This document shows positions 17,005-64,000 of a stretch of 64,000 nt of DNA, in pieces. The translations under genes and the position numbers were made by a program. Source of the DNA: a candidate division CPR3 bacterium GWF2_35_18 (GTDB taxonomy: Bacteria; Patescibacteriota; CPR3; GWF2-35-18); the NCBI GenBank assembly GCA_001771135.1, contig MESW01000002.1, positions 5,315 through 69,314 on the forward strand, written 5' to 3'. Each line of letters opens with the position of its first letter. Positions within the stretch are counted from its first letter, which is position 1. The notes below the pieces were generated by a model. It made no database searches and was not told the DNA's origin. It worked only from the letters and a program-made list of their open reading frames with translations.

Positions 17005-17062
17005 AAAGGGGTCTGCGACATTGTGTGTCGTAGATGCGTGGTCAACAGACCCCCTTTTGCGT
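17005..17062 (-). terminator. Rho-independent terminator for the minus-strand operon 18221->17069
   Basis: Read on the minus strand: CAAAAGGGGGTCTG ...loop... CAGACCCCTTTTTG, an 11-12 bp stem followed by a T-run, immediately 3' of the stop at 17069. Confidence 0.6.
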
Positions 17063-17068
17063 GTGTGG

Positions 17069-17362
17069 CTACATTTGATCCAGGTTGAGGATCACCACGA
17101 TGATGCTCGAGAGCGTCTCGCGGAGATACTTTTCCCAGGACAAAGGATACCGATTGGTGTAACCCCAGCACTGAGCAACTTCAACTGGACCGATATATTG
17201 GTCAGCTTGAGCTATCAGTTCGCCAAGGTCTTTCCTGGGGATCCTCTTCACAAGTTGTTTAACCACTTCTTCGGGGTTACCGATTCCATGGTCTTGCGTC
17301 TTGTTGACTTCTTTTGCAACCTTCCGAAGAAGTTTGCATAGAGTCATTTTGTTTGTAGCCAT
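17069..17362 (-). CDS. Hypothetical protein (97 aa) in GC-rich island 1
   Basis: Strong RBS GGAGGTG before the ATG. About 50 % GC, versus about 33 % in the surrounding sequence. No recognisable family. Confidence 0.55.
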   Translation of the reverse strand: MATNKMTLCKLLRKVAKEVNKTQDHGIGNPEEVVKQLVKRIPRKDLGELIAQADQYIGPVEVAQCWGYTNRYPLSWEKYLRETLSSIIVVILNLDQM

Positions 17363-17627
17363 GAGCCACCTCCTTTGGAGCCACTGTTTGGCACAGTGCC
17401 AGATGAGTCCCGGGCCACCGGAAAGGACTCAGCCCTACGAAGCGATTAACAAGGTCAAAGAAATTGGTGATATATGACCTTTCGCTGTCCGGTTTAGAGG
17501 TGGTGGAGAAAAAACCTAGCTCTACGTGGTATCATGGCCGACGGAATTTTTCTACCGCCAGGCTGGTGGTCCGTTTGAGCGTACCCATACTTATCCGCAA
17601 CAGAGCTAGGGATTGGAAAAACAGGAT

Positions 17628-18221
17628 CTAGGTGTTTTCGAATGGATTCTGCCAACCAAGACCTTTGGCATTTAATGAATTTAAAATAGTATCGTAAGCC
17701 TTACGTGTAAGTCCTTGCTTTCCGTCAAGACAACCTTCAGCTTCTCCATCGGTAGCGGCCTCGAGCGTGTGGCAAATAGAAATTGCTTGATTTATGGGTA
17801 GGTGAAGAGTGATTATTTGACCGAAGAATTTTTCGATGTCAGCGGGATTTGAGTAATGCTCATCTTTCAGAGCTAGGTACAAAATCGCGGAACCCGTTTC
17901 GTCGCTCCAGAGAACAATCTCCAACCGAAAATCGTTCCGTCCAGATTCGTTTGTGAAAACCGCGATTCTAGTTGTGTATCCAGTTTTGCGAACGACATCA
18001 AATGCTTCACGTACGACTTGATTGAAAACCATCATCGTAAAATCGTGAATTCCGATGTAGTCGTCGGCGGCTGGGGTGCCGCAAAAGAGTTGGAAGACAA
18101 CCTGACCATGCTCAGTATAGACCGGCAAGAAGTTGCCTTTGATTCCACTTGTTCGCAATCCGTGCATGCCCAGAATTTCTTGGGCTTTAGTTAAAAGGAT
18201 GGTTTTAGGTTTTGTGTTCAT
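17628..18221 (-). CDS. Hypothetical protein (197 aa; 212 aa if the upstream ATG at 18266 is used) in GC-rich island 1
   Basis: GGAGGA RBS before the ATG at 18221. GC-rich codon usage. No recognisable motif. Confidence 0.55.
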   Translation of the reverse strand: MNTKPKTILLTKAQEILGMHGLRTSGIKGNFLPVYTEHGQVVFQLFCGTPAADDYIGIHDFTMMVFNQVVREAFDVVRKTGYTTRIAVFTNESGRNDFRLEIVLWSDETGSAILYLALKDEHYSNPADIEKFFGQIITLHLPINQAISICHTLEAATDGEAEGCLDGKQGLTRKAYDTILNSLNAKGLGWQNPFENT

Positions 18222-18623
18222 AGGTCCTCCTCGAACCTGTCCTGCTTCCTCGGCAGGAGTGAACATTTGAATGGTTGGTTGAATTGAATTGGTTGGTGTT
18301 AAACGAACGAATTCTCGAATTTTTCGATAGACCTTCCTTTCTTTTTCTTTGATTTTGGATAGGCGAGCTTGTGAGCTCGAATCTTTTTGGCTTTATGCCA
18401 ATGGGATTAGTGAAGGAAGAAGAGTAATTTCTTTCCTCGCTATTCCCATTGGGAAAAGCCATTTTCAAGGCAATAACCTTGATGCATTATGCTTCAGTTT
18501 TTAAAGAACAATGATGATTTTTACCACTAAAAAATAAATGGAAAAACCACAAATAATGGCGGGAAGTATATCATATATTGATGTGAATATCAAAACTATG
18601 GGATTGAAGTTGGAATTCTGAAA

Positions 18624-36522: not shown

Positions 36523-37086
36523 ATGAAACCTCAATCGTATCGATTTACTCAACCACGTCAAACCGTGGGTTATGCCGCATGTCAGGACGACCGCGTGCAG
36601 GCCGATGTTCAAGTGATTTTAGCTGAAATGGGCTTAGCCCTTGGACATTACTGTGCGATTAACCTGGCTGGTGGCGCTGGTGTTCCGGATCTTATTGATC
36701 GTTTGCTTCCCGAACTGGAAGTTGATCACGAGCACCACAATCCCCAGGGTTGGTTACTGATCGGCCACGAGGAATGCGCCGCCGGTGCCAATCTAGATAC
36801 TCTGTTTACCAATCTGGGACAGATTAAGCAACTCTTTCCGGATATGGTGGGTAAGCTTGTGATTGTTTGGCAGTTCAAGGTCGTTGGTTACCAGGAGAAG
36901 GAGTTTTGGGGTCATGTGTACCTCAATGTAGACGCCGAAACCTCGGTCACCTGGTACATTGTAGTTGGCGATGCGAAGGAGAGCGCGAAAGCGTTCGTAC
37001 TTACAATGACTGGAAAAGATCTTCCCGGTCCTCATATTCTCTCCCGTGACTATACTGATCATGATGTGACGGTGATCGTCGCCTAA
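36523..37086 (+). CDS. Hypothetical Cys/His-rich protein (187 aa) in GC-rich island 2
   Basis: About 52 % GC with GC-rich third positions. RBS GGGAGA. No family recognised. Confidence 0.55.
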   Translation: MKPQSYRFTQPRQTVGYAACQDDRVQADVQVILAEMGLALGHYCAINLAGGAGVPDLIDRLLPELEVDHEHHNPQGWLLIGHEECAAGANLDTLFTNLGQIKQLFPDMVGKLVIVWQFKVVGYQEKEFWGHVYLNVDAETSVTWYIVVGDAKESAKAFVLTMTGKDLPGPHILSRDYTDHDVTVIVA

Positions 37087-52963: not shown

Positions 52964-53548
52964 GTTCGAATTGTAGGAGATTAGATCATAAAAGTCAAAA
53001 AAGTGGAGACAATTTGATTTTTGGGTGATATCAAACTATGGGTTACTATGTGGTTATTGTCACAGCAGTAACATTAATATGTTTAATATAGGACATAAAT
53101 ATAATAAAAATATGGATATTGATTGTTATATAAGGGTAAAACTGTATTTATTGGTAATTATTGCACTTCGTTTGTACTATTATGGGTCTTGACAAATATA
53201 TTTGAATGTGGTAAGGTAATATTGTCCTTTCTAAAAAGGCAATCGTTCATCTCCTAAATTGGGGGGCTGACAAGGTTAATTGGGACGCCGTATGTAGCAA
53301 CAAATGGTGCCGCGATTAGCCCTGATAGCCCCTCAATTGCGTTTCTATAGTAATTTTTCAAAAACTAGAATCCCCCGGAATAGAATATTCTAGAAGTATC
53401 TATCAGCTTTATAGTGTAATTAGTAGGCCTATAAATATTCTGTGTAATTAATTAGGGTATTTTATATTTCCCTTATATATAAATGTATGATTTAAATATA
53501 CTAAAATTTATAGTAAAGTTATGGTATTAAATGTATATCCTATAGTGC

Positions 53549-53577
53549 TTGACAAATACTTAAAAACATGATATACT
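53549..53577 (+). promoter_or_regulatory. Consensus sigma70 promoter P2 (TTGACA-17 nt-TATACT)
   Basis: -35 at 53549-53554, a 17-nt spacer, -10 at 53572-53577. Confidence 0.65.
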
Positions 53578-53583
53578 ATTTTT

Positions 53584-53660
53584 GTTAAGTTGGAGAGAGA
53601 AGAATATATTCCATTTTTTTAAAAGCTCTCTGAATCGATAAGAAGAAGGAGTTTTTTTTG
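53584..53660 (+). ncRNA. Candidate small RNA 1 (about 77 nt): the 5' end reads GUUAAGUUGGAGAGAG, followed by a hairpin and a terminator
   Basis: Starts about 7 nt after the -10 of P2 and ends at the T8 run at 53652-53659. No ATG or RBS-coupled ORF. Paralogous to candidate sRNA 2. Confidence 0.45.
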
Positions 53661-53779
53661 CACTTAAAATATTAGAAAAAATACATTTAAAGATTAGTAG
53701 GTAATCCGAAGTGGAGGAGAGACTCTCCAACAAACAAACTATTTCTCCTCTGCTTCATATTATCTATTAACCCATAGTA

Positions 53780-53808
53780 TTGACATTTATTAAAAATTAT
53801 GCTATACT
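53780..53808 (+). promoter_or_regulatory. Consensus sigma70 promoter P3 (TTGACA-17 nt-TATACT)
   Basis: -35 at 53780-53785 and -10 at 53803-53808. Confidence 0.65.
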
Positions 53809-53814
53809 ATTTAT

Positions 53815-53890
53815 AGTTTGTTGGAGAGAGCAGTAAAAGCAGGAATCTTACTGTATAAAAGAGAGCTCGCCAACGCGCGAGCTTTTTTTG
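53815..53890 (+). ncRNA. Candidate small RNA 2 (about 76 nt): 5' GUUUGUUGGAGAGAG, an internal CAGUAA/UUACUG hairpin, and a terminator GAGCUCGC-CAAC-GCGCGAGCU + U7
   Basis: Promoter-to-terminator unit. No ORF. Shares its 5' motif with sRNA 1. The reverse complement of that motif also occurs at about 53712-53726. Confidence 0.45.
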
Positions 53891-53950
53891 TCGCACCTTA
53901 TAACAAATTACTGAAGTCATGGTTAAAGAATTTATGAGAGGCTTATAACT

Positions 53951-53979
53951 TTGACAAATTATATTATTTGGAGTATATA
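53951..53979 (+). promoter_or_regulatory. Consensus sigma70 promoter P4 (TTGACA-17 nt-TATATA)
   Basis: -35 at 53951-53956 and -10 at 53974-53979. A structured region follows (TTGGGGCT...AGCCCCAA hairpin). Confidence 0.55.
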
Positions 53980-54113
53980 GAAATGTATTTCCCCAAAATA
54001 CTGGAAATATATATGTTGGGGCTTAAAAATTATATAGCCCCAAGCAATGAGAGAGGTGGAATAGCTATCTAAGTAGCTTATTTATAGCTTCTCATATCCA
54101 AAAGCGGTTTTTT

Positions 54114-54171
54114 GTTATTCTGAGCGGTATGTGAAAGATCATTAGAAATTTCTCACTGCGTTCAGAATGAC
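54114..54171. repeat. Palindromic repeat family, copy A (GTTATTCTGAGCG ... CGTTCAGAATGAC)
   Basis: Arms pair with G-U wobbles if transcribed from the + strand. Sits just upstream of the GC-rich block that starts at about 54.4 kb. Confidence 0.6.
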
Positions 54172-54958
54172 AGAAAATAAAAGAATCGGAACTACGAAAA
54201 AGAATTGAAACGACAGAAATAGATGTGGAAGAAGAGGTACGTGTTTAGAACTTTAAAAAAAGAATATTTCGTTAATCTCCGGAAATAATCCGGAAAATTT
54301 TAAATTCTTCTTAATGAAGGAAGATTGCAGTTACTGCAAGGAAGTAAACTGGAAGCTATTGATTTAGTATCTAGTTCGCTTTCTTGCAGGAAGTTGAGGT
54401 CTGTTAGGAAAATCTTTCCGCTTTCATAAGTCGCAAGCGCAGAAAGGATCTGCAGATTTTCAAACCAGAATACTCAGACGGTTGGGTAATAGTCAGGTTG
54501 ACCCTGTGAATCCAAACGAAGTACTGCAAAAAGTGTCGTTCCCGGTTTTTCGGGCCTGAAGGGTTGTACCCCGTAGGCGCCTGGGTAGGACCCAATTATA
54601 GGTCCGCCTAACCGGAAAAAGACCTCTTCCTTTGGAAGGGGCATATCGTGCCTGTCAGGTAATAGGCCTTGCAGTTTTTGTAGAATTTATCCGAAGCTGC
54701 TTTCAGAGCAGTCTTAGATAAGCGGATAGAGGAAGCAAAAATAAAGAGGCTGAAAAACTTGAAGGGCGAAATTGGACAATTTCTTTCAACTCCCCAAACC
54801 GAAAGGGTTAGTAACTTGAGAGGGAACGGTCTCCATTTGTTTTTCTGGTTCCAGTCCAGCTGCCGAATACAGTAGGCAAAAGATGAAAGGACTCAGACTG
54901 AACTTTCAAGAGTGAAACACTCTCTTAGGCAAGGGGTAGTATTCAAGGAGAATGATAT

Positions 54959-56341
54959 ATGGAGACTAAAACCTCCACCCAGAGCCGCAAGGGGCTCTAT
55001 AATATCTTTGCGTCCGTTATCGTAGCCCTGATGCTCGTTGCCGTTTTCTTCGGCTTCGTTGGCACTGCGGCCGCTCAGGAGTCCGTTCCTGACTACCAGC
55101 CCGTGGTTGACCCTTATCCGGTCACCGTGGGCGTTACCACCGCGATCAGCCTCAGCCCGGCACCGACCGCGACGGCCGACATCCACTGGACGATCAACGC
55201 CTCTGATGGTAGTCTCGTGCTGGATACCACCGAGTTCACGGTGACGCATGTGTTCACCAATGCCGGCGATTACACCGTTGGTGTGACGATCAGCGACACG
55301 AATGGCGTGTATGTGAATGCCTGGTTGCTGAACGTGGAAGAGCCGGTTTTGACACCTGCTGCTGCCTTGACCAACCTGTTGACCGCTGTGATGGCGCCTG
55401 CAAGCCCTGATAAAGCCGCTGATGTAGCTGAAGCTGTTGCCGATGTTCAGCGCGCTCTGGGCGTGGTTGTTCGCGGCGCCGTCCAGTCCAATGAAGGCGG
55501 TTCGATCGAACTTCGCCCTGTCCAGCCGATTGCGGCAATGAGTGAAGAAGCTCGCGCTTTGGCTATGGACACTGCTGCTGGCACCGATCTGCACTTCGCA
55601 TGGGGTGCTGGATGGCACAATCATCAGGCCGATTTGGGCGCTGGGACTCAACTGTTGAGCGGCGTCTTCTTCGACTCTGACGATCCGGCCTATTTCGGCA
55701 CCACCGAACCGATCTCTGGCGGCCTCTGGGTGTCTTCGATGTACACCCCCAACGTTAGCCTGGAAACGGCCGAATATACCACGACCTTCACTTCTACCCA
55801 GTGGGTAGACAGCGATGGCAACGGTATGTTTGACCTTCTGGCGGTTGGTAGCCCCTGGGATGGTTCTGTCGTCACCATGAGCCTCGATTACGAAGGCGTA
55901 TACACCGAGACCTGGAGCGTCCAGATCGGTATGGAACCGAAACTGATTAGCACCGAAGGCACCAGCCCTGCACCGGCGACCGCCGATGCTTTCCGCACCA
56001 GCGCTGCTGCTGATACATACCCATTCGTACCCGGTCAGGGTTGGGATGTAGCTGCCAATACGGCTTACACGGACACCGTCTTCTACGGCGCTTACTTCGG
56101 TGGCGCTGATTTTGGCGGCGTCTGCAATGACCACTGCGTGGTTAGCTATGCTGGGCGGAGCTATGAATCGACCGATGCTGATGGCAACGGGACGTACGAT
56201 TTCTTCCTGCCCGGCGCTGGTTCTGCCGAAATCGAAGGCCCTGGGGCTTGGGAATTCACCGTCACCGATGACGATGGCAATACCGAGACCTGGATCTTCA
56301 TCCTGGGCGCCACTCCTCAGATCGTCCCCGCTGGCGAGTAA
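54959..56341 (+). CDS. GC-rich (about 58 % GC) secreted protein with Ig/PKD-like and DxDGNG calcium-binding-like repeats
   Basis: AAGGAGA RBS. Signal anchor with an AAAQE cleavage-like site. DSDGNGMFD and DADGNGTYD motifs. Third codon positions are GC-rich, unlike neighbouring genes. Confidence 0.65.
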   Translation: METKTSTQSRKGLYNIFASVIVALMLVAVFFGFVGTAAAQESVPDYQPVVDPYPVTVGVTTAISLSPAPTATADIHWTINASDGSLVLDTTEFTVTHVFTNAGDYTVGVTISDTNGVYVNAWLLNVEEPVLTPAAALTNLLTAVMAPASPDKAADVAEAVADVQRALGVVVRGAVQSNEGGSIELRPVQPIAAMSEEARALAMDTAAGTDLHFAWGAGWHNHQADLGAGTQLLSGVFFDSDDPAYFGTTEPISGGLWVSSMYTPNVSLETAEYTTTFTSTQWVDSDGNGMFDLLAVGSPWDGSVVTMSLDYEGVYTETWSVQIGMEPKLISTEGTSPAPATADAFRTSAAADTYPFVPGQGWDVAANTAYTDTVFYGAYFGGADFGGVCNDHCVVSYAGRSYESTDADGNGTYDFFLPGAGSAEIEGPGAWEFTVTDDDGNTETWIFILGATPQIVPAGE

Positions 56342-56407
56342 CAATCAAAACTATGCTTCAACCCTGAGGCTGTCTGCAGAAATGCGGATAATAAATAACT
56401 AATGGGT

Positions 56408-56480
56408 GGAAACCTGCCGGCCTCCTGGCCTGCGCGTTTGTACGTCCTGATCTGCGCTCTTTGTGCGCCGGCAGGTTTCC
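56408..56480 (+). terminator. Long GC-rich hairpin downstream of the 460-aa gene (putative terminator)
   Basis: GGAAACCTGCCGGC ... GCCGGCAGGTTTCC, a perfect 14-bp inverted repeat with a 45-nt loop, followed by TTGTCTTTTC. Confidence 0.5.
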
Positions 56481-56890
56481 TTGTCTTTTCATCTTAGTCT
56501 GGTTTTATCTTGACCAGTCCCAAAGCCTATCATTAAGTTGATAGATCCTCAGGAAAACAAGATAAGTGAAGGATTTTTCCTTCCTGGAGTTATAGAGAAA
56601 ATAAAGAATCTATAGCAAGACTCCAAGATGAGGCAATTCCTCATCGAGCTAGTTTGCATGAAAATGCAGTTAAAATTGGTTTGGTCATTGTGAAGGTCTG
56701 TTGTTTTTGTATTGAAGATACATTTATTGTCACCCTAAAAGTGACCTGTCCTTATCATCTTCAAAACACCAACCAACAAAACAACACAATCATCAACCCA
56801 ATCTAGCTTCCCTCTTGTGCTTAGCACCTGATGAAGGCTTGGGAAGATCAAGCCGAAAGAGGAAAGTTAAATTATATATATTAAATCAAA

Positions 56891-56918
56891 AGCCACCCTG
56901 AAAATGGGTGGTTTTTTT
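56891..56918 (+). terminator. Rho-independent terminator that ends an ORF-less transcribed region (about 56540-56918)
   Basis: GCCACCC-TGAAAAT-GGGTGGT followed by TTTTTTT. Confidence 0.65.
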
Positions 56919-56934
56919 GTGCCTTTTTGTATTT

Positions 56935-57038
56935 TGTCATGCTGAACGAAGTGAAGCATCTAGGTCTAAAGACCGCAGTATTGGTAACTGTGCGTTCTGC
57001 CTTTGGCAGAACTAGATCCTTCGTTAAACTCAGGATGA
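56935..57038. repeat. Palindromic repeat family, copy B (GTCATGCTGAACGAAG ... CTTCGTTAAACTCAGGATGAC) with two internal small hairpins
   Basis: Read directly. Sits just downstream of the GC-rich block. Its right arm abuts or overlaps the 3' end of the GIY-YIG gene. Confidence 0.6.
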
Positions 57039-57341
57039 CATAAATAAATTATTAAAATTAGGATTGATAGTCTTTATAAGGCTAATCTTTTTCTCCCTTT
57101 TCCAACCTTTGATTTTCTTTTCTACTTCTATTGCTTCTGTAGGAGAATTAAATTCTTCCATCCAAATTAATTTATATAGTTTGTATTTCTTAGAGAAGGA
57201 ACTTTTTATTATACCTTTTGTATGTTCTTCAATTCTTCTTTCTAAATCATTGGTTATTCCGGTATATAACACAGAATTTGTATGATTAGTAATAATATAA
57301 ACATACCAACTGAAGTTATTCATATTATTTAAGAATATCAT
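57030..57341 (-). CDS. Stand-alone GIY-YIG nuclease domain protein
   Basis: WYVYIITNHTNSVLYTGITNDLERRIEEH (GIY...YIG...R...E motifs). The true start may be the internal ATG at 57323 (MNNFSWYVYII). Confidence 0.72.
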   Translation of the reverse strand: MIFLNNMNNFSWYVYIITNHTNSVLYTGITNDLERRIEEHTKGIIKSSFSKKYKLYKLIWMEEFNSPTEAIEVEKKIKGWKREKKISLIKTINPNFNNLFMSS

Positions 57342-59919: not shown

Positions 59920-59948
59920 AGAACTAGATAATAAGTAGATAACAAAAA

Positions 59949-59985
59949 AGCCCCTGGTTTTGATATCAAAACCAGGGGCTTTTTC
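59949..59985. terminator. Bidirectional rho-independent terminator
   Basis: AGCCCCTGGTTTT-GATATC-AAAACCAGGGGCT, flanked by an A-run and a T-run. Confidence 0.75.
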
Positions 59986-60373
59986 TATTTATATTCCTTA
60001 TTCGGCTTGAACTTCCCAAGCCAGCGGTTCAATTACTTGAACGACTTTGTTTAGATGAGTCTAAACAATCTTCAGGTGCTACTTTGCCCCGCCAAAGGCG
60101 GGGGCACATAAGGAAAGGTAGGGAGAGGAGATAGAGTTTGTGAGGTTGGTGTGTGAAGATGTGAAGAAAAGACCAAGATTTGGTCTCACAAATTGTTCTA
60201 TCTCTCTCCCTAGCGGGTTCTTTAATCGCCAAAAGGCGACTTTCGGTGCCCACGGGGTTTATTCCGTGTTACATTGTTCGGGTTTAGACCCGTGGGCACT
60301 TTTTAGCGGGGAACCAAGTCATGCGGTTCAAGGCATGTCTTTTTTAACACTATGCCCGCTTTCGAGCGACTTT

Positions 60374-61687
60374 TTATGGCGCGAGATTAACGTGCCAGCG
60401 CTCGATGATATTTCCGACTTTGATCTCTACCGTCCAGGGGGCGGTGCTTGAGCAACCGGCATCAAAGATGCCGTTGCCATCATCGTCGGTTGCCGTAAGG
60501 CTTTCATCATTGCAAGTGATTTGCATATCGGCGTTATCCACGCTGATTGACAGAAATTCGACATTCAGCGCGAACAAGCCAAAGAGGAAGTCTTCCTGTT
60601 CTGGATTGCTCCAGCCCTGACCGGTGGTGAGAGTGATCGTCCCGCGATCGATGACCGTGGGAGGAGTGTAGTCTTTGTATGCCAGGGGGATAAATATCTG
60701 GTACGTTGTGGGCGCTGGTGAGATGACCGTGACGGTCATGGTGTCACTGACAACATTTCCTGCGACGTTGGTGGCAGCAACCTCAATAACTTTTTCACCC
60801 GGAGTTTCCCAGACGAGGGCTTGTTGTACGCCTAACGACAGTCCGTAAAACTCAATCTCTCCGAGGTCAGTGGCCGTGAAGTGGTAGGTGACGTTGTTAG
60901 TTGCGGTGACGTTCGTCATCGCTGTTAACGTGATTTCTTCACCAATATATCCATTGAGAGGGCCTGCAATTTGCACCCATGTGACGGGCACTATCTGGTC
61001 TGAAATGATTATTTGATTGTAATCCTGGAGACGATACTCAGCCCAAGCAATCATTCCGACGATTTCGGTTTGGCCAGTTTCAGTGAGCACCATAGTGTCT
61101 GTCAGAGTGAAAACTTCATTCGGGATCAGAATTCGATCTCCGCATTGTCCCCACGGAGCCCGTAAGGATACTGTTGCCGTCATGTTGCCGATGTTAGTGA
61201 TGCTGAACTCAACATCGAAGGGTTGATTCACCTGGACTTCTGCAGGGGAATTCACGTACACAGTGAAGAAGGCGTCGTTGCGAACGATTTTAGCCGGAGT
61301 TTCGTTAGTGACGGTGAATGTCCATGTTTCGGTGATGATTCCGTCAGTAATGATGTAGAGATCGTTGATAGGACTCAAGAAAGCCTGGTCGTTATCCATG
61401 CTGAGTGTCCAGGTATAGCCATCAGAGCGGGTTACGATTCCTTCACCATAGGCGTGGATTCCGTCTTGATTGTCCGCATAGAGATGGTTAATTGGGCTGC
61501 CGGCTTCAAAACCTTCGTTTAAAAGATCCATCTCAGGGTTCAGGATGGCTTCTACGGTGATAGTATTTACAGTTTGTGCAGCAGTCGCATTCTGCGTATC
61601 GGCAAAGCTCAATAGAGCAATGACAGCTACGAGCGCGATAAGGATAGAAATTGCCGGGGTTAAGCGGCGGATAGCATAAGCGTTCAC
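60374..61687 (-). CDS. GC-rich secreted protein (437 aa) with a C-terminal DDDGNG Ca-binding-like module; paralogous in part to 54959..56341
   Basis: GTG start with an AAGGAGA RBS 7 nt upstream. Signal peptide ending ATAAQT. The C-terminus (TATDDDGNGIFD...WTVEIKVG...ERWHVNL) resembles TDADGNGTYDFF...WEFTVTDDDGNTETWIFIL of the 460-aa protein. Confidence 0.62.
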   Translation of the reverse strand: MNAYAIRRLTPAISILIALVAVIALLSFADTQNATAAQTVNTITVEAILNPEMDLLNEGFEAGSPINHLYADNQDGIHAYGEGIVTRSDGYTWTLSMDNDQAFLSPINDLYIITDGIITETWTFTVTNETPAKIVRNDAFFTVYVNSPAEVQVNQPFDVEFSITNIGNMTATVSLRAPWGQCGDRILIPNEVFTLTDTMVLTETGQTEIVGMIAWAEYRLQDYNQIIISDQIVPVTWVQIAGPLNGYIGEEITLTAMTNVTATNNVTYHFTATDLGEIEFYGLSLGVQQALVWETPGEKVIEVAATNVAGNVVSDTMTVTVISPAPTTYQIFIPLAYKDYTPPTVIDRGTITLTTGQGWSNPEQEDFLFGLFALNVEFLSISVDNADMQITCNDESLTATDDDGNGIFDAGCSSTAPWTVEIKVGNIIERWHVNLAP

Positions 61688-61999
61688 AGTTTTTCTCCTT
61701 CAGAAAAATTGTATCGGAATTTTTCCGCGAACCAATGGTTGGCGGATTGACTAATAGAGGAAAATAGTTGATTTTTAGCCTGAAGAGAAATAGTTCCTCT
61801 TACTTTACAAGGCTTTTTAGGTTGACTGCTTTTAAGCAGATTGATATTTGAACGCTTCGTGCAATACTCCACTAGGGCTTTCTTTGCGCTAGTGTTGCTC
61901 TTTGATTTAATTCCTAAATCCCAGGTTTCCAATCTGAGAGAGGATCAAAGAGGATTATTTCTTGCAGGAAGAAGTCTTGGGGACAAGGCATTTTCATAT

Positions 62000-62097
62000 G
62001 TCATCCTGAACGAATATTAAGGATCTAGAAACTATTAGTTTCGTAAGAATTCGCTTTGCTAGATTCTTCATTAACATTCAGAATGACAAAAGGGAAA
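62000..62097. repeat. Palindromic repeat family, copy C (GTCATCCTGAACGAATATTAAGGATCTAG ... CTAGATTCTTCATTAACATTCAGAATGAC)
   Basis: Read directly. Has a central AAACTATTAGTTT mini-hairpin. Lies 300 bp beyond the 5' end of the GC-rich minus-strand gene. Confidence 0.6.
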
Positions 62098-62976
62098 ACT
62101 ATTTATTCCCATGATTTCTCCCTGCAAGTATTTGTCTCAATCCTTTTTAAAGTACAAAATCTAAATGTCTTCTTCCGTTTCTTTATTTTCTTACTTTGTT
62201 TTTCTGTAGTTTCGATGGTTTTTAGCTAGAAGAAGGGGAGAGATTTTGTCTGGAGAGATTTTGATCTCTCCACTTCTTTTTAACCAAAAAACCGCCTCTG
62301 GATGGGAGACGGTCAGTGTACCAAAATACTACTTTAAAGCAGTATTTTAAGTCAATTGTCTCTCTCCAGACATATTCAGTTTGTTATTATGTATAATAGC
62401 ACAAATTAAGGGAAAAGTCAATACTATAGGATTAAATATGTGTTTTCTTTAAATTTGGAGAAAGATTAAGAAAAGGGGAAGAGGAGAGGGAAGAGCGAAA
62501 GAAATAAAAGTGGAAACAAGGATAGTTTCAAAAGAGCCAAGGCTCTCCTTTCTATGCCGGACCGTGGTGGTCTTTTGGCTTTTGAAAGTAGCTCCTTGAG
62601 TCTACACTTTTTATCTTTCAGTCTTCCCGTCCACCAAATTGGTGAACTACCGTTTGTATATATTTTAGTTGGATACGGTGGTCCAACCTCCAGAGGGGGG
62701 AGGGAATGGCAAGCTGATCAGGCACACATGGATTTTGTCCACGTTCGCGCGACTGTCATTCTCCTCCCCACTTGGAGTCAAAAATTGTGAGGTGTTTGTG
62801 CCACCAGAATTATCTACAGTCTCCTCAGGCTGTAAAGTTCAAAAGTGACACGAATCCCTATTCGTCCAACAATTTCTTAGACGAATTCGTCTTTCTCTTT
62901 TATCTTCTTTTTCTACCGAGCGGTCCGAGCAGGGTAAATCAATCAGAGAGAAAGGTCTCCCAATCACCTCAAAGCT

Positions 62977-63390
62977 TTACGGCCTTGGCCCGATAGTGGG
63001 CAGAGCAGGTGTTTGGGTGGGGGTGGGGGTCGGTGCGCCAATCAGGGTGTTGCCTGCAGCAGCAACTGTAGCTTTAGCGTTTGTGACGCCATTTGCTGCT
63101 TGTGTTGCCGTCGCCTGAGCGTTGACCAGATTATTGGCCGCTTGTGTAGCAGCATTCTGCTTGTTCTGCAGATTCTGGATAGCGCTTGCCTGATTAGCTT
63201 CAGCGTCTTTGAGTGCGTCAACTGCACCATAAACGCCAGCCGAATCATCTGTCGCGGGGGTCGCGGTCTCTTTGACGGTTATTTCTACTGGAATCCAGTC
63301 CCATGTTTCTGTGGGAAGGTAGTAGTATAACGCCGTCACGAGGACGACTAACCCGAGCAATGCCAATGCATAAAGCCCAAGTTTCTTCAC
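62977..63390 (-). CDS. GC-rich small membrane-anchored Ala/Thr/Gln/Asn-rich protein (137 aa)
   Basis: GTG start with an AAAGGAGA RBS. N-terminal TM helix. Low-complexity AANNLVNAQATATQAANG repeats. Pro/Thr-rich C-terminus. Confidence 0.5.
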   Translation of the reverse strand: MKKLGLYALALLGLVVLVTALYYYLPTETWDWIPVEITVKETATPATDDSAGVYGAVDALKDAEANQASAIQNLQNKQNAATQAANNLVNAQATATQAANGVTNAKATVAAAGNTLIGAPTPTPTQTPALPTIGPRP

Positions 63391-63825
63391 GTTATTCTCC
63401 TTTCTCCATTGTGACGCCTTTAATGCGCGTCAGAATTTGAATTTACTTCCTCTCGGACCAGAGGAAGACGGGGGTTTTCCCCTTGATTTTCCGGTAAGGG
63501 AGAAAGGTTGTAAAAGCAACCCTTTTTCCTTACCAGAAAGAGAAAGGAGGAGGAATTTTTCCATCTTTTGATGGTAAATAATAAGGAACTTCTCCATAAA
63601 GTCGAAGTATAGTGTTGTTATTCTTCGAGCGAAGTCGAGAAGTACCATGATAATAGGTGCTAGATTGTTTTTCCTTTTCAGGCTTAAAGGAGAGGAGAAT
63701 CTGTGATTCGTTGGAGTGAATTTTAAACTCTCCTCACCTTGAGTCAAAAAAGGAATATTTTACTATTATAAATATGGGGAAAAGACTTTAAGACAAGCTT
63801 ATTATCTCTCTCCATATACAAAAAA

Positions 63826-63860
63826 AGCTCTCATTCGTCAGAGAGCTCCATCAAGCTTTT
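63826..63860 (-). terminator. Rho-independent terminator on the minus strand
   Basis: Reverse complement reads AGCTCTC-TGACGAAT-GAGAGCT followed by TTTTTTTTG. Confidence 0.55.
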
Positions 63861-64000
63861 ATATATATTTCTCCAACGAACAGGGCAGTATAGCATAAAA
63901 TGAAAGGAATGTCAATACTATAGGGTAAATGATTATCCCACTCTTGTGGTGACAAAAGAATCAGTTAAAATTGACACTAAATTACGTCATCAAGGAATTC

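What the first reader, a model, noticed from the sequence alone, without database searches (positions are those of the whole stretch)
54114..57038. A palindromic repeat family (GTCATYCTGARCG...CGYTCAGRATGAC); copies A and B bracket the 460-aa GC-rich gene block
Three copies were read directly: A 54114-54171, B 56935-57038 and C 62000-62097. A degenerate relative lies at about 63607-63640. Each copy is an imperfect palindrome of 58-104 bp with a variable central hairpin and bulges. Copies A and B flank the GC-rich 54.4-56.5 kb block on both sides. Copy C lies just outside the 60.0-61.99 kb GC-rich block. In shape these resemble MITE/REP elements or integron attC-like recombination sites that delimit mobile cassettes. 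Copy A would pair through G-U wobbles only as + strand RNA, so an RNA-level function is also possible.
Basis: seen in the sequence. Interest (0 to 1): 0.7.

Follow-up and report, generated by a model that had tools for sequence, protein, structure and literature searches.

The report
Hairpin repeats of a GIY-YIG nuclease
The palindromic repeats are real, but they are pairs of a hairpin motif described in 2025 (Ssn-related motifs) that accompany a small single-stranded-DNA nuclease gene encoded right next to one copy, and they do not mark the edges of the GC-rich gene blocks.

Summary
Three palindromic copies exist at 54114-54171, 56936-57039 and 62000-87. The fourth, at 63607-40, is not supported. 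Each copy is two ~28-nt hairpin motifs facing each other, T-GTC-[ATYCT-GA-NN-loop-NN-GA-AGRAT]-C-TAG, with GTCAT at the outer ends.

This has the architecture of the NTS/SRM motif of Chenal et al. 2025: GTCAT, hairpin, ATC-Y-R-G. That motif is the ssDNA binding site of the Ssn family of ~95-aa GIY-YIG nucleases.

A 97/103-aa GIY-YIG gene (57030-57341, minus strand) abuts copy B, and its stop codon lies inside the repeat arm. In 80 loci from many phyla that encode homologues of this protein, the motif occurs 367 times against ~27 expected. It concentrates within 250 nt of the gene, mostly as SRM(+)-gene-SRM(-). Convergent pairs of 60-110 bp are the commonest arrangement.

A covariance model built only from those other genomes finds exactly the arms of B and C in the 64-kb window (E 3e-8 to 9e-5), and one arm of A weakly.

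No integrase, TnpA/RAYT or transposase is present. A syntenic relative keeps the GC-rich gene, leader and trailer but has no repeats or nuclease gene. Copy C lies inside the second block. The cassette-boundary reading therefore fails.

Verdict: a new member (candidate phylum CPR3) of a known kind.

The parts
56936..56963 (+). Copy B, left arm. Intact SRM hairpin motif: TTTT|GTC|ATGCT|GA-AC-GAA-GT-GA|AGCAT|CTAG.
   Evidence: Sequence. CM R1, built from other genomes: 43.2 bits, E 3e-8. The local 5-bp stem is exactly complementary.
56964..57011 (.). Copy B, variable central spacer (48 nt) with its own small hairpins.
   Evidence: Fold of the whole element, -26.2 kcal/mol, z -6.9. No counterpart in copies A or C.
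57012..57039 (-). Copy B, right arm. Intact SRM on the minus strand: TTAT|GTC|ATCCT|GA-GT-TTA-AC-GA|AGGAT|CTAG. It overlaps the last codons and the stop codon of the nuclease gene (ATG TCA TCC TGA).
   Evidence: CM R1: 42.1 bits, E 5.5e-8. ORF end at 57030.
57030..57341 (-). Ssn-type single-domain GIY-YIG nuclease gene. It is 103 aa from the first ATG. The public annotation starts at 57323 and gives 97 aa (P0001). GC content is 25%.
   Evidence: Pfam PF01541, E 1.3e-19. 189 homologues of ~95 aa. Invariant Y9, Y20 and E68 have nearly the spacing of Y6, Y17 and E64 mutated in N. meningitidis SsnA (PMC11893778).
62000..62028 (+). Copy C, left arm. SRM: ATAT|GTC|ATCCT|GAACGAATATTA|AGGAT|CTAG.
   Evidence: CM R1: 29 bits, E 8.6e-5. 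Exact 5-bp stem.
62029..62058 (.). Copy C, variable central spacer (30 nt).
   Evidence: Sequence.
62059..62087 (-). Copy C, right arm. SRM on the minus strand: TTTT|GTC|ATTCT|GA-AT-GTTA-AT-GA|AGAAT|CTAG.
   Evidence: CM R1: 34 bits, E 5.2e-6.
54114..54171 (.). Copy A, a short (58 nt) decayed convergent SRM pair. The right arm (54143-54175, minus strand) is still recognisable. The left arm (54110-54144, plus strand) has GTTAT in place of GTCAT. The local stems are broken in both arms.
   Evidence: CM R1: 17 bits for the right arm and 3.2 bits for the left arm. Fold as a single long hairpin: -13.4 kcal/mol on the + strand.

Best explanation
Each 'palindrome' is a convergent pair of Ssn-related motifs (SRMs). 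An SRM is an oriented ~28-nt unit: a pyrimidine-rich flank ending in T, then GTC, then a hairpin, then C-T-N. The hairpin has a 5-bp stem ATNCT/AGNAT, a tandem GA/GA, a 2-bp inner stem and a 3-4-nt loop.

The two motifs of a pair lie on opposite strands with GTCAT outwards. The pair therefore reads as an imperfect 58-104-bp palindrome with a free central spacer.

The cognate protein is the ~97-aa single-domain GIY-YIG nuclease encoded at 57030-57341, directly against copy B.

Mechanism (inferred by analogy with the characterised family, N. meningitidis SsnA and three homologues, Chenal et al. 2025):
- When the DNA is single-stranded (uptake during transformation, replication or repair), each arm folds on its own strand.
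- The nuclease binds the hairpin plus the C that follows it, and cuts the same strand a few nucleotides 5' of GTC, in the T-rich flank. It leaves dsDNA and RNA alone.
- A convergent pair thus gives one cut site on each strand, at the outer edges of the element.
- Incoming homologous ssDNA that spans copies A, B or C would be cut there. This would shorten recombination tracts around the flanked surface-protein genes.

Copies A and C carry no gene. A is decaying.

Shown here: the identity of the motif, its association with the gene family across phyla, covariation of the hairpin, and the indel status of the [pair + gene] module.

Inferred: ssDNA binding and cleavage by this protein, and its biological role in this organism.
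For: Motif identity:
- The arms have the same architecture as the published NTS, CGTCAT-stem-loop-stem-ATCYRG (PMC11893778). The window has TGTCAT...ATCTAG.

Adjacent gene:
- GIY-YIG, single domain, 97/103 aa.

Association with the gene family:
- In 80 loci from Patescibacteria, Bacteroidota, Proteobacteria, Firmicutes, Chloroflexi, Cyanobacteria and others that encode homologues (42-70% identity), the strict motif GTCAT+N3..loop..rcN3+ATC occurs 367 times. Ten dinucleotide shuffles give 23-33.
- Within 250 nt upstream of the gene there are 71 motifs in + orientation and 25 in -. Within 250 nt downstream there are 33 in + and 77 in -.
- 63 of 80 loci have a motif within 300 nt downstream, and 56 of 80 upstream.
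- 48 of 80 loci have SRM(+) upstream and SRM(-) downstream.

Pairing of motifs:
- There are 75 convergent pairs, mostly 60-110 bp, and 22 of them lie more than 1 kb from the gene.
- Convergent is the commonest orientation of neighbouring motifs: 65, against 37 divergent and 51 tandem.

Covariation:
- Inner pairs that the search did not impose covary. Columns 15-21 read GC 49, AU 30, CG 3, with 2 unpaired.
- The tandem GA/GA is replaced by Watson-Crick GA/TC in 13-16 of the 86 sequences.

Within the window:
- Each arm's stem is self-complementary while the two arms of one element differ. B has ATGCT/AGCAT against ATCCT/AGGAT, and C has ATCCT/AGGAT against ATTCT/AGAAT. Selection therefore acts on the local hairpins.
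- Model R1, built only from other genomes, finds the four arms of B and C, one arm of A, and nothing else in 64 kb.

Filled and empty site:
- The window has about 445 nt (copy B plus the nuclease gene) between a conserved terminator and the conserved Wzy promoter. The relative L087 has 14 nt there.
Against: - The published degenerate SRM search string gives 0 hits in the window and only 15 in the 80 loci. The stems here are shorter and more AT-rich than in Neisseria.
- By nearest-neighbour DNA energies the local hairpins are weak (-1.4 to -2.2 kcal/mol, z about 0). The whole palindromes are far more stable, so free ssDNA would favour one long hairpin in which GTC is paired. These energy tables do not credit sheared G-A pairs or GNA loops (my knowledge).
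- Direct homology to N. meningitidis SsnA and assignment to cd10448 could not be tested. Neither the sequence nor CDD was available.
- The nuclease gene here has a motif pair only on its 3' side.
- Only three elements and one relative were available, so any link with the surface-protein genes is anecdotal.
- No biochemistry exists for any CPR member.
Confidence: 0.82

Rival explanations
1. The pairs are miniature, non-autonomous mobile elements (MITE-like), derived from an SRM-ssn-SRM unit that behaves as an insertion sequence. Under this reading the copies mark insertion events rather than serving the host. This is compatible with the best explanation as to identity, but differs on what the copies are for.
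For: The SRM(+)-gene-SRM(-) architecture occurs in 48 of 80 loci, and gene-less convergent pairs of similar size lie more than 1 kb from the gene in 22 cases. The [pair + gene] module is a discrete ~445-nt indel relative to L087, where a HicA toxin-antitoxin pair occupies the same intergenic region. Copy A looks like a decaying copy. All copies are intergenic with T-rich outer flanks. The authors of the Ssn paper raise the IS analogy.
Against: No target-site duplication flanks A, B or C. A GIY-YIG nuclease has no known strand-transfer activity (my knowledge), and each strand of a pair carries only one cleavable motif. There are no filled/empty polymorphisms among the same-population contigs. 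No homologue was found in phage records, and plasmid records gave only 9 matches (8 near full length), all on large non-mobilizable replicons. The indel could equally be a deletion in L087.
Confidence: 0.3
2. The repeats are integron attC-like or other site-specific recombination sites that delimit mobile gene cassettes (the GC-rich blocks).
For: They are imperfect palindromes with variable centres. A and B lie on either side of the 460-aa gene, and C lies next to the 437-aa gene.
Against: No tyrosine or serine recombinase was found among the scanned ORFs of at least 90 aa in the window. The termini are GTCAT/ATGAC, not GTTRRRY. In L087 the orthologous GC-rich gene keeps its leader (window 54319-54952) and trailer (56413-56822) without any repeat. 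Copy C is internal to the 4.2-kb block that L087 lacks. Other GC-rich ORFs have no copy.
Confidence: 0.02
3. The repeats are REP/BIME elements served by a RAYT (an IS200/IS605-like HUH transposase).
For: They share the general logic: extragenic hairpins, often in inverted pairs, recognised as ssDNA, with the enzyme gene flanked by them (discussion; my knowledge of REP/RAYT).
Against: No Y1 transposase or RAYT is present in the window. There is no GTAG/CTAC tetranucleotide at the hairpin foot. The repeats track a GIY-YIG gene across 80 loci.
Confidence: 0.03
4. The elements act at the RNA level, as terminators, attenuators or a structured sRNA or leader element.
For: A and C lie in 5' leaders downstream of strong promoter-like sites, and B lies after a gene end. 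Copy A pairs better on the + strand through G-T/U wobbles.
Against: The flanks are T-run, hairpin, A-run on both strands, the opposite of an intrinsic terminator. B is already preceded by a canonical terminator at 56893-56920. The oriented motif sits on opposite strands in the two arms, so one transcript carries only one sense motif. There is no Rfam match. The wobble bias is seen only in the decayed copy. SsnA does not bind RNA.
Confidence: 0.05

Closest known systems
NTS / SRM repeats with Ssn (SsnA) single-stranded DNA nucleases (Chenal et al., Nat Commun 2025, PMC11893778)
   Same: An oriented hairpin motif with GTCAT 5' of the stem and ATC-Y-R-G 3' of it. A ~95-aa single-domain GIY-YIG gene flanked by the motifs in inverted orientation. 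Copies are intergenic, multi-copy, and lie next to surface-protein genes. The catalytic Tyr, Tyr and Glu have nearly the same spacing (11 and 48 residues against 11 and 47).
   Different: The stem is 5 bp and AT-rich, followed by a tandem G-A and a 2-bp mini-stem, rather than the 8-bp GC-rich stem of Neisseria, so it fails the published degenerate search string. The motifs occur as tight convergent pairs. The gene has motifs on one side only. The host is a CPR3 (Patescibacteria) organism, a group the paper's main text does not mention. No biochemistry is available.
Neisseria dRS3 repeat (ATTCCC-N8-GGGAAT)
   Same: It is the palindromic core of the NTS. It corresponds in position to ATYCT..AGRAT here, and it flanks variable surface-protein genes.
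   Different: The sequence differs. dRS3 was defined without the oriented flanks.
REP/BIME elements and RAYT transposase-like proteins (IS200/IS605 relatives)
   Same: Extragenic hairpin repeats, often as inverted pairs, recognised as ssDNA by a small nuclease whose gene they flank.
   Different: The enzyme is an HUH/Y1 protein, not GIY-YIG. REPs carry a GTAG foot. None was found in the window.
Integron attC sites
   Same: Imperfect palindromes with variable centres that act as folded single strands.
   Different: They need an IntI tyrosine recombinase and R/L boxes with extrahelical bases, and they bound promoterless cassettes. None of this is seen here.
MITEs (for example Neisseria Correia elements)
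   Same: Short, non-coding, with terminal inverted repeats, intergenic and multi-copy.
   Different: There is no target-site duplication and no transposase. The 'inverted repeats' here are each an autonomous hairpin motif.

Membership tests
Ssn / SRM system (Chenal et al. 2025) | A single-domain GIY-YIG protein of about 90-100 aa encoded next to the repeats | tested here: met
   PF01541, E 1.3e-19, residues 12-85 of 103, no other domain. The gene end overlaps the right arm of copy B.
Ssn / SRM system (Chenal et al. 2025) | The protein belongs to CDD family cd10448 and is homologous to N. meningitidis SsnA (tblastn E < 1e-10) | not testable with these tools
   Neither CDD nor the SsnA sequence was available. 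Indirect evidence: invariant Y9, Y20 and E68 against the mutated Y6, Y17 and E64. Homologues at 41-58% identity occur in alpha- and gamma-proteobacteria, including a Sphingomonadales genome. The relation to the UPF0213 structures 1zg2 and 1ywl is only distant (E 4e-6 and 5e-5).
Ssn / SRM system (Chenal et al. 2025) | An oriented motif: GTC(A/T)Y 5' of a hairpin, and a C directly after the palindrome followed by Y-R-G | tested here: met
   All four arms of B and C read TGTCAT-stem-loop-stem-ATCTAG. CM R1 gives 29-43 bits.
Ssn / SRM system (Chenal et al. 2025) | A match to the published degenerate string HGTCWYN(0-2)YYVSBRHN(0-5)WNVSBRGN(0-2)RNCYNB | tested here: not met
   0 hits in the window. 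Only 15 hits in the 80 homologue loci, where the hairpin scan finds 367. The string requires a GC-rich stem. It is a search device rather than a definition.
Ssn / SRM system (Chenal et al. 2025) | Motifs flank the nuclease gene (NTS-ssnA-NTS) | tested here: inconclusive
   The window has a pair on the 3' side only and nothing in the 44 nt upstream. In the homologue loci, 48 of 80 have SRM(+) upstream and SRM(-) downstream.
Ssn / SRM system (Chenal et al. 2025) | Motif and gene family co-occur across genomes | tested here: met
   367 motifs against about 27 expected in the 80 loci, concentrated within 250 nt of the gene.
Ssn / SRM system (Chenal et al. 2025) | Sequence-specific binding and cleavage of ssDNA only, 5' of the motif | not testable with these tools
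   Needs purified protein and oligonucleotides.
Integron attC / gene cassette | An IntI-type tyrosine recombinase and attC R/L boxes (GTTRRRY) bounding cassettes | tested here: not met
   No recombinase in the window. The termini are GTCAT. The GC-rich gene is conserved without repeats in L087.
REP / RAYT | A Y1 (HUH) transposase-like gene flanked by REPs with a GTAG foot | tested here: not met
   No Y1_Tnp hit in the window. There is no GTAG at the hairpin foot.
MITE | Terminal inverted repeats plus target-site duplication, related to an autonomous transposon | tested here: inconclusive
   Inverted termini are present. No direct repeat flanks A, B or C. A plausible parent unit (SRM-ssn-SRM) exists in other genomes, but transposition has not been demonstrated.
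Intrinsic terminator | A GC-rich hairpin followed by a T-run | tested here: not met
   The T-run precedes the element and an A-run follows it, on both strands. The terminator scan does not call the elements.

The most novel reading that the evidence does not exclude
Convergent SRM pairs, with or without the nuclease gene, may be a mobile element family driven by a GIY-YIG ssDNA nuclease, and the ~445-nt [pair + ssn] indel relative to L087 may be a trace of its movement. In this DNA-scavenging CPR bacterium the copies around the unusual GC-rich surface-protein genes would then partition those genes into separate recombination units for incoming single-stranded DNA.
Probability: 0.25. Interest if true: 0.6.

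Novelty: new member of a known kind. Interest (0 to 1): 0.3.

Why it matters
This places the repeats in a system characterised only in 2025 and extends that system to the candidate phyla radiation. Three points may be useful to people working on Ssn nucleases:

- The commonest cross-phylum form of the motif is GTCATYCTGAGCGAAGCGAAGRATC, with a tandem G-A and a GAA mini-hairpin. The published search string misses it, so the family's repeat census is probably underestimated.
- The usual unit is a tight convergent pair.
- The gene plus one pair behaves as a small indel module.

For genome annotation, it explains a class of palindromes and the spurious short ORFs they generate. It does not reveal a new kind of mechanism.

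Tried and rejected
- **Rfam.** The gathering threshold on the whole window and E-value mode on 52.9-64 kb gave nothing relevant.
- **Published SRM regular expression.** 0 hits in the window.
- **PADLOC and PHROGs for the nuclease.** Only weak homing-endonuclease similarity. NCBIfam gave no family.
- **PDB.** Only distant UPF0213 structures.
- **Phage and plasmid collections.** No phage hit. Plasmids gave 9 matches (8 near full length), all on large non-mobilizable replicons.
- **Empty sites within the same population.** Contigs L081-L086 and L088 are identical at the repeats. The apparent differences in L081 are runs of N.
- **Metagenome scan with a conserved leader sequence.** It returned only the same population.
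- **Paralogous-leader alignment (A against C against the 63.4-63.9 kb leader).** Too diverged to give clean empty sites.
- **Literature search for the repeat sequence itself.** Only unrelated primers.
- **The 63607-63640 'relative'.** Rejected as unsupported.
- **Link with GC-rich blocks in general.** Rejected, because the GC-rich ORFs at 17-18 kb and 36.5-37 kb have no copy.
Full report
**Observation**

The three copies are in the sequence: A at 54114-54171, B at 56936-57039 and C at 62000-62087. The arm pattern with up to two mismatches gives 14 hits against 2.7 expected, and none of 100 shuffles reaches 14. The six best hits are the six arms. As single-stranded DNA the whole elements A and B fold much better than shuffles (z -4.4 and -6.9). 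C does so only marginally.

**Anatomy**

Each end of B and C can also form its own small hairpin, ATNCT..11-12 nt..AGNAT. These local stems are exactly complementary within an arm, while the two arms of one element differ:

- B-left is ATGCT/AGCAT and B-right is ATCCT/AGGAT.
- C-left is ATCCT/AGGAT and C-right is ATTCT/AGAAT.

The long-range pairing of the two arms therefore carries mismatches where the local hairpins do not. This points to selection on the local hairpins. Read this way, every arm is the same oriented unit:

T-rich flank | GTC | ATNCT | GA NN loop NN GA | AGNAT | CTAG

The unit is present on the + strand at the left end and on the - strand at the right end, with GTCAT pointing outwards. 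The centre (48 nt in B, 30 nt in C) is unrelated between copies.

**The neighbouring gene**

The ORF at 57030-57341 (minus strand) is a single-domain GIY-YIG protein (PF01541, E 1.3e-19). Its last codons and its stop codon (ATG TCA TCC TGA) lie inside the right arm of copy B. The identical 97-aa protein is annotated in candidate division CPR3 bacterium GWF2_35_18. It has 189 homologues of about 95 aa, many of them labelled Patescibacteria or CPR groups.

**Link to the literature**

Chenal et al. 2025 (PMC11893778) describe the Ssn family. Its members are ~94-aa single-domain GIY-YIG proteins (CDD cd10448). They bind a hairpin repeat as single-stranded DNA only and cut a few nucleotides 5' of it. 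The repeat is the NTS in Neisseria (CGTCATTCCCGCGMAVGCGGGAATCYRG), and related repeats elsewhere are called SRMs.

- The C directly after the palindrome is the most critical base for binding.
- The three bases 5' of the palindrome are the most critical for cutting.
- The repeats flank the nuclease gene (NTS-ssnA-NTS), are almost always intergenic, and cluster around surface-protein genes.
- In N. meningitidis the system restricts recombination of transforming DNA.

The window arms have the same architecture, and both critical features are present: TGTCAT, hairpin, ATC-T-A-G.

**Test of the association in other genomes**

A profile of 30 homologues retrieved 80 loci from genomes of many phyla: Patescibacteria, Bacteroidota, alpha- and gamma-proteobacteria, Clostridia, Chloroflexi, Cyanobacteria, Planctomycetota, Verrucomicrobia and others. 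Identity ranged from 42 to 70%. Reading the 150 nt downstream of each gene shows the motif almost everywhere.

A strict scan (GTCAT, three free bases, a loop of 5-45 nt, their exact complement, ATC) gave these results:

| Measure | Result |
|---|---|
| Motifs found in 1.17 Mb | 367 |
| Motifs in ten dinucleotide shuffles | 23-33 |
| Within 250 nt upstream of the gene | 71 in + orientation, 25 in - |
| Within 250 nt downstream of the gene | 33 in + orientation, 77 in - |
| Loci with a motif within 300 nt downstream | 63 of 80 |
| Loci with a motif within 300 nt upstream | 56 of 80 |
| Loci with SRM(+) upstream and SRM(-) downstream | 48 of 80 |
| Convergent pairs, mostly 60-110 bp | 75 |
| Convergent pairs more than 1 kb from the gene | 22 |
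| Orientation of neighbouring motifs | 65 convergent, 37 divergent, 51 tandem |

**Structure and covariation**

In 86 distinct motifs with an 11-nt loop, the inner pairs were not imposed by the scan, yet they covary. Columns 15-21 read GC 49, AU 30 and CG 3, with 2 unpaired. Columns 16-20 read CG 55, UA 7 and UG 3. The tandem GA/GA is replaced by Watson-Crick GA/TC in 13-16 sequences. The outer stem takes at least nine different sequences. The 5' flank is T at position -1 in 70% of motifs and is G-poor back to position -8. After ATC come T (78%) and then C (55%).

**Independent detection in the window**

A covariance model built only from those 86 foreign motifs was run over the window with filters off:

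| Arm | Score | E-value |
|---|---|---|
| B-left | 43 bits | 3e-8 |
| B-right | 42 bits | 5.5e-8 |
| C-right | 34 bits | 5e-6 |
| C-left | 29 bits | 9e-5 |
| A-right | 17 bits | 0.07 |

Nothing else in 64 kb reaches a convincing score. A-left scores 3.2 bits (GTTAT in place of GTCAT, stems broken), so copy A is a decayed pair. The proposed relative at 63607-63640 scores 2.3 bits for an internal fragment and lacks both flanks. I do not count it.

**Rival enzymes and RNA**

Pfam scans of the predicted ORFs of at least 90 aa in the window found no tyrosine or serine recombinase, transposase, IS200/IS605 TnpA or RAYT. No Rfam family matches.

The flanks run T-run, hairpin, A-run on both strands, which is the reverse of a terminator. 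Copy B already follows a canonical terminator at 56893-56920. The wobble asymmetry of copy A is what two transitions in one decaying arm produce. It is not seen in B or C.

**Do the copies delimit the GC-rich blocks?**

The 460-aa protein has a single homologue among 5.8 billion proteins (67% identity). Its contig, L087, is syntenic with the window: GC-rich gene, Wzy-like gene, glycosyltransferase, GT4 and radical-SAM gene, with GT4 at 66% and radical-SAM at 69% identity.

- In L087 the GC-rich gene keeps its leader (equivalent to window 54319-54952) and its trailer (window 56413-56822).
- The model finds no SRM anywhere in the 10.6 kb of L087, and no nuclease gene is called on it.
- Between the conserved terminator (GGGTGGTTTTTTTGTRCCTTT) and the conserved Wzy promoter and start (TGATATACTTA..GTATGA), the window has about 445 nt consisting of copy B plus the nuclease gene. 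L087 has 14 nt there.
- L087 instead carries a HicA/DUF7387 pair a little upstream.

The second and third GC-rich genes and copy C lie in a 4.2-kb stretch (59920 to about 64130, using L081 for the part beyond the window). L087 lacks this stretch between two adjacent glycosyltransferase genes. Copy C is in the middle of it, not at an edge. Other GC-rich ORFs in the window (17.0-18.3 kb and 36.5-37.1 kb) have no copy.

The repeats are therefore not cassette boundaries. The [pair + nuclease gene] is itself a small indel module.

**Mechanism**

The following steps are inferred from the characterised family, not shown here.

1. On single-stranded DNA each arm folds on its own strand.
2. The nuclease binds the hairpin and the following C, and nicks in the T-rich flank 5' of GTC.
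3. A convergent pair gives one such site per strand, at the outer edges.
4. In Neisseria this truncates homology tracts of transforming DNA around NTS-flanked surface genes.
5. The same could apply here to the PKD-domain and other secreted GC-rich proteins flanked by A, B and C. It is my knowledge, not tested here, that CPR bacteria generally carry DNA-uptake genes.

Caveats:

- With standard DNA energy parameters the local hairpins are weak (-1.4 to -2.2 kcal/mol, z about 0), while the whole palindromes are stable. The protein may be needed to hold the local fold. These parameters also ignore sheared G-A pairs and GNA loops.
- The published degenerate SRM string does not match.
- Direct comparison with SsnA or cd10448 was not possible.

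**Verdict**

The feature is a new member, in candidate phylum CPR3, of the Ssn/SRM kind described in 2025. Interest is modest.

Noticed in passing
window 53540-53670 (+), 53771-53900 (+), 62280-62430 (-), 63810-63924 (-): There are four copies of a unit CCYATAGTATTGACA-N17-(TG)TATACT, then TTGGAGAGAG, a variable 40-60 nt, and a hairpin plus TTTTTTG. This looks like a near-consensus promoter driving a short terminated transcript (an sRNA or an attenuated leader). The units lie upstream of the three GC-rich genes. There is no Rfam match.
   Followed up: partly
window 54959-56341 (+), 60374-61687 (-), 62977-63390 (-); L087 2078-3439: Three genes for secreted or membrane-anchored proteins have 50-58% GC in a 34% GC genome. 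Their GC3 is 0.51-0.65 against 0.26-0.31 in neighbouring genes. The only homologue of the 460-aa protein (67% identity) is even more extreme (GC3 0.78 against 0.46). The anomaly therefore affects synonymous sites and is kept in two lineages. The 460-aa and 437-aa proteins share a weak C-terminal DDDGNG-FD region (E 7e-5).
   Followed up: partly
window 54319-54952 and L087 1480-2072: The ~600-nt 5' leader of the 460-aa gene is conserved in islands (up to 86% identity), with a compensatory hairpin change (TTGCAGTTACTGCAA against TTGTAGTCACTACAA). This suggests a large structured 5' UTR. No Rfam family matches.
   Followed up: partly
window 59920-64000, continuing to about 64130 via L081: A 4.2-kb stretch carries the 437-aa and 137-aa GC-rich genes, copy C and two of the promoter units. 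It is absent from the syntenic relative L087, where the two glycosyltransferase genes are 8 nt apart.
   Followed up: partly
L087 3995-4472: The relative carries a HicA toxin / DUF7387 pair in the same intergenic region where the window has the nuclease gene plus copy B. This spot appears to collect small selfish modules.
   Followed up: no
window 55392-55428; L088 (Ga0208953_1010283): A metagenome contig is otherwise identical to window 53075-55900 but lacks 37 nt inside the 460-aa ORF, which would shift the frame. This is either a population variant or an assembly error.
   Followed up: no
window 56836-56864 and 59994-60022: A 29-nt sequence (90% complementary) is shared in inverted orientation by the 3' ends of the two GC-rich gene units, next to their terminators.
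   Followed up: no
window 17021-18266 and 36523-37086: Further GC-rich ORFs (45-50% GC) have no Pfam match and no repeat copy nearby.
   Followed up: no
whole window: There is no tRNA gene and no Rfam gathering-threshold hit in 64 kb.
   Followed up: no
L001-L080: The published degenerate SRM search string finds 15 sites in the 80 homologue loci, where a simple GTCAT-hairpin-ATC scan finds 367 (about 27 by chance). The commonest cross-phylum form is GTCATYCTGAGCGAAGCGAAGRATC. It has a tandem G-A and a GCGAAGC-type mini-hairpin, and the published string does not capture it.
   Followed up: yes
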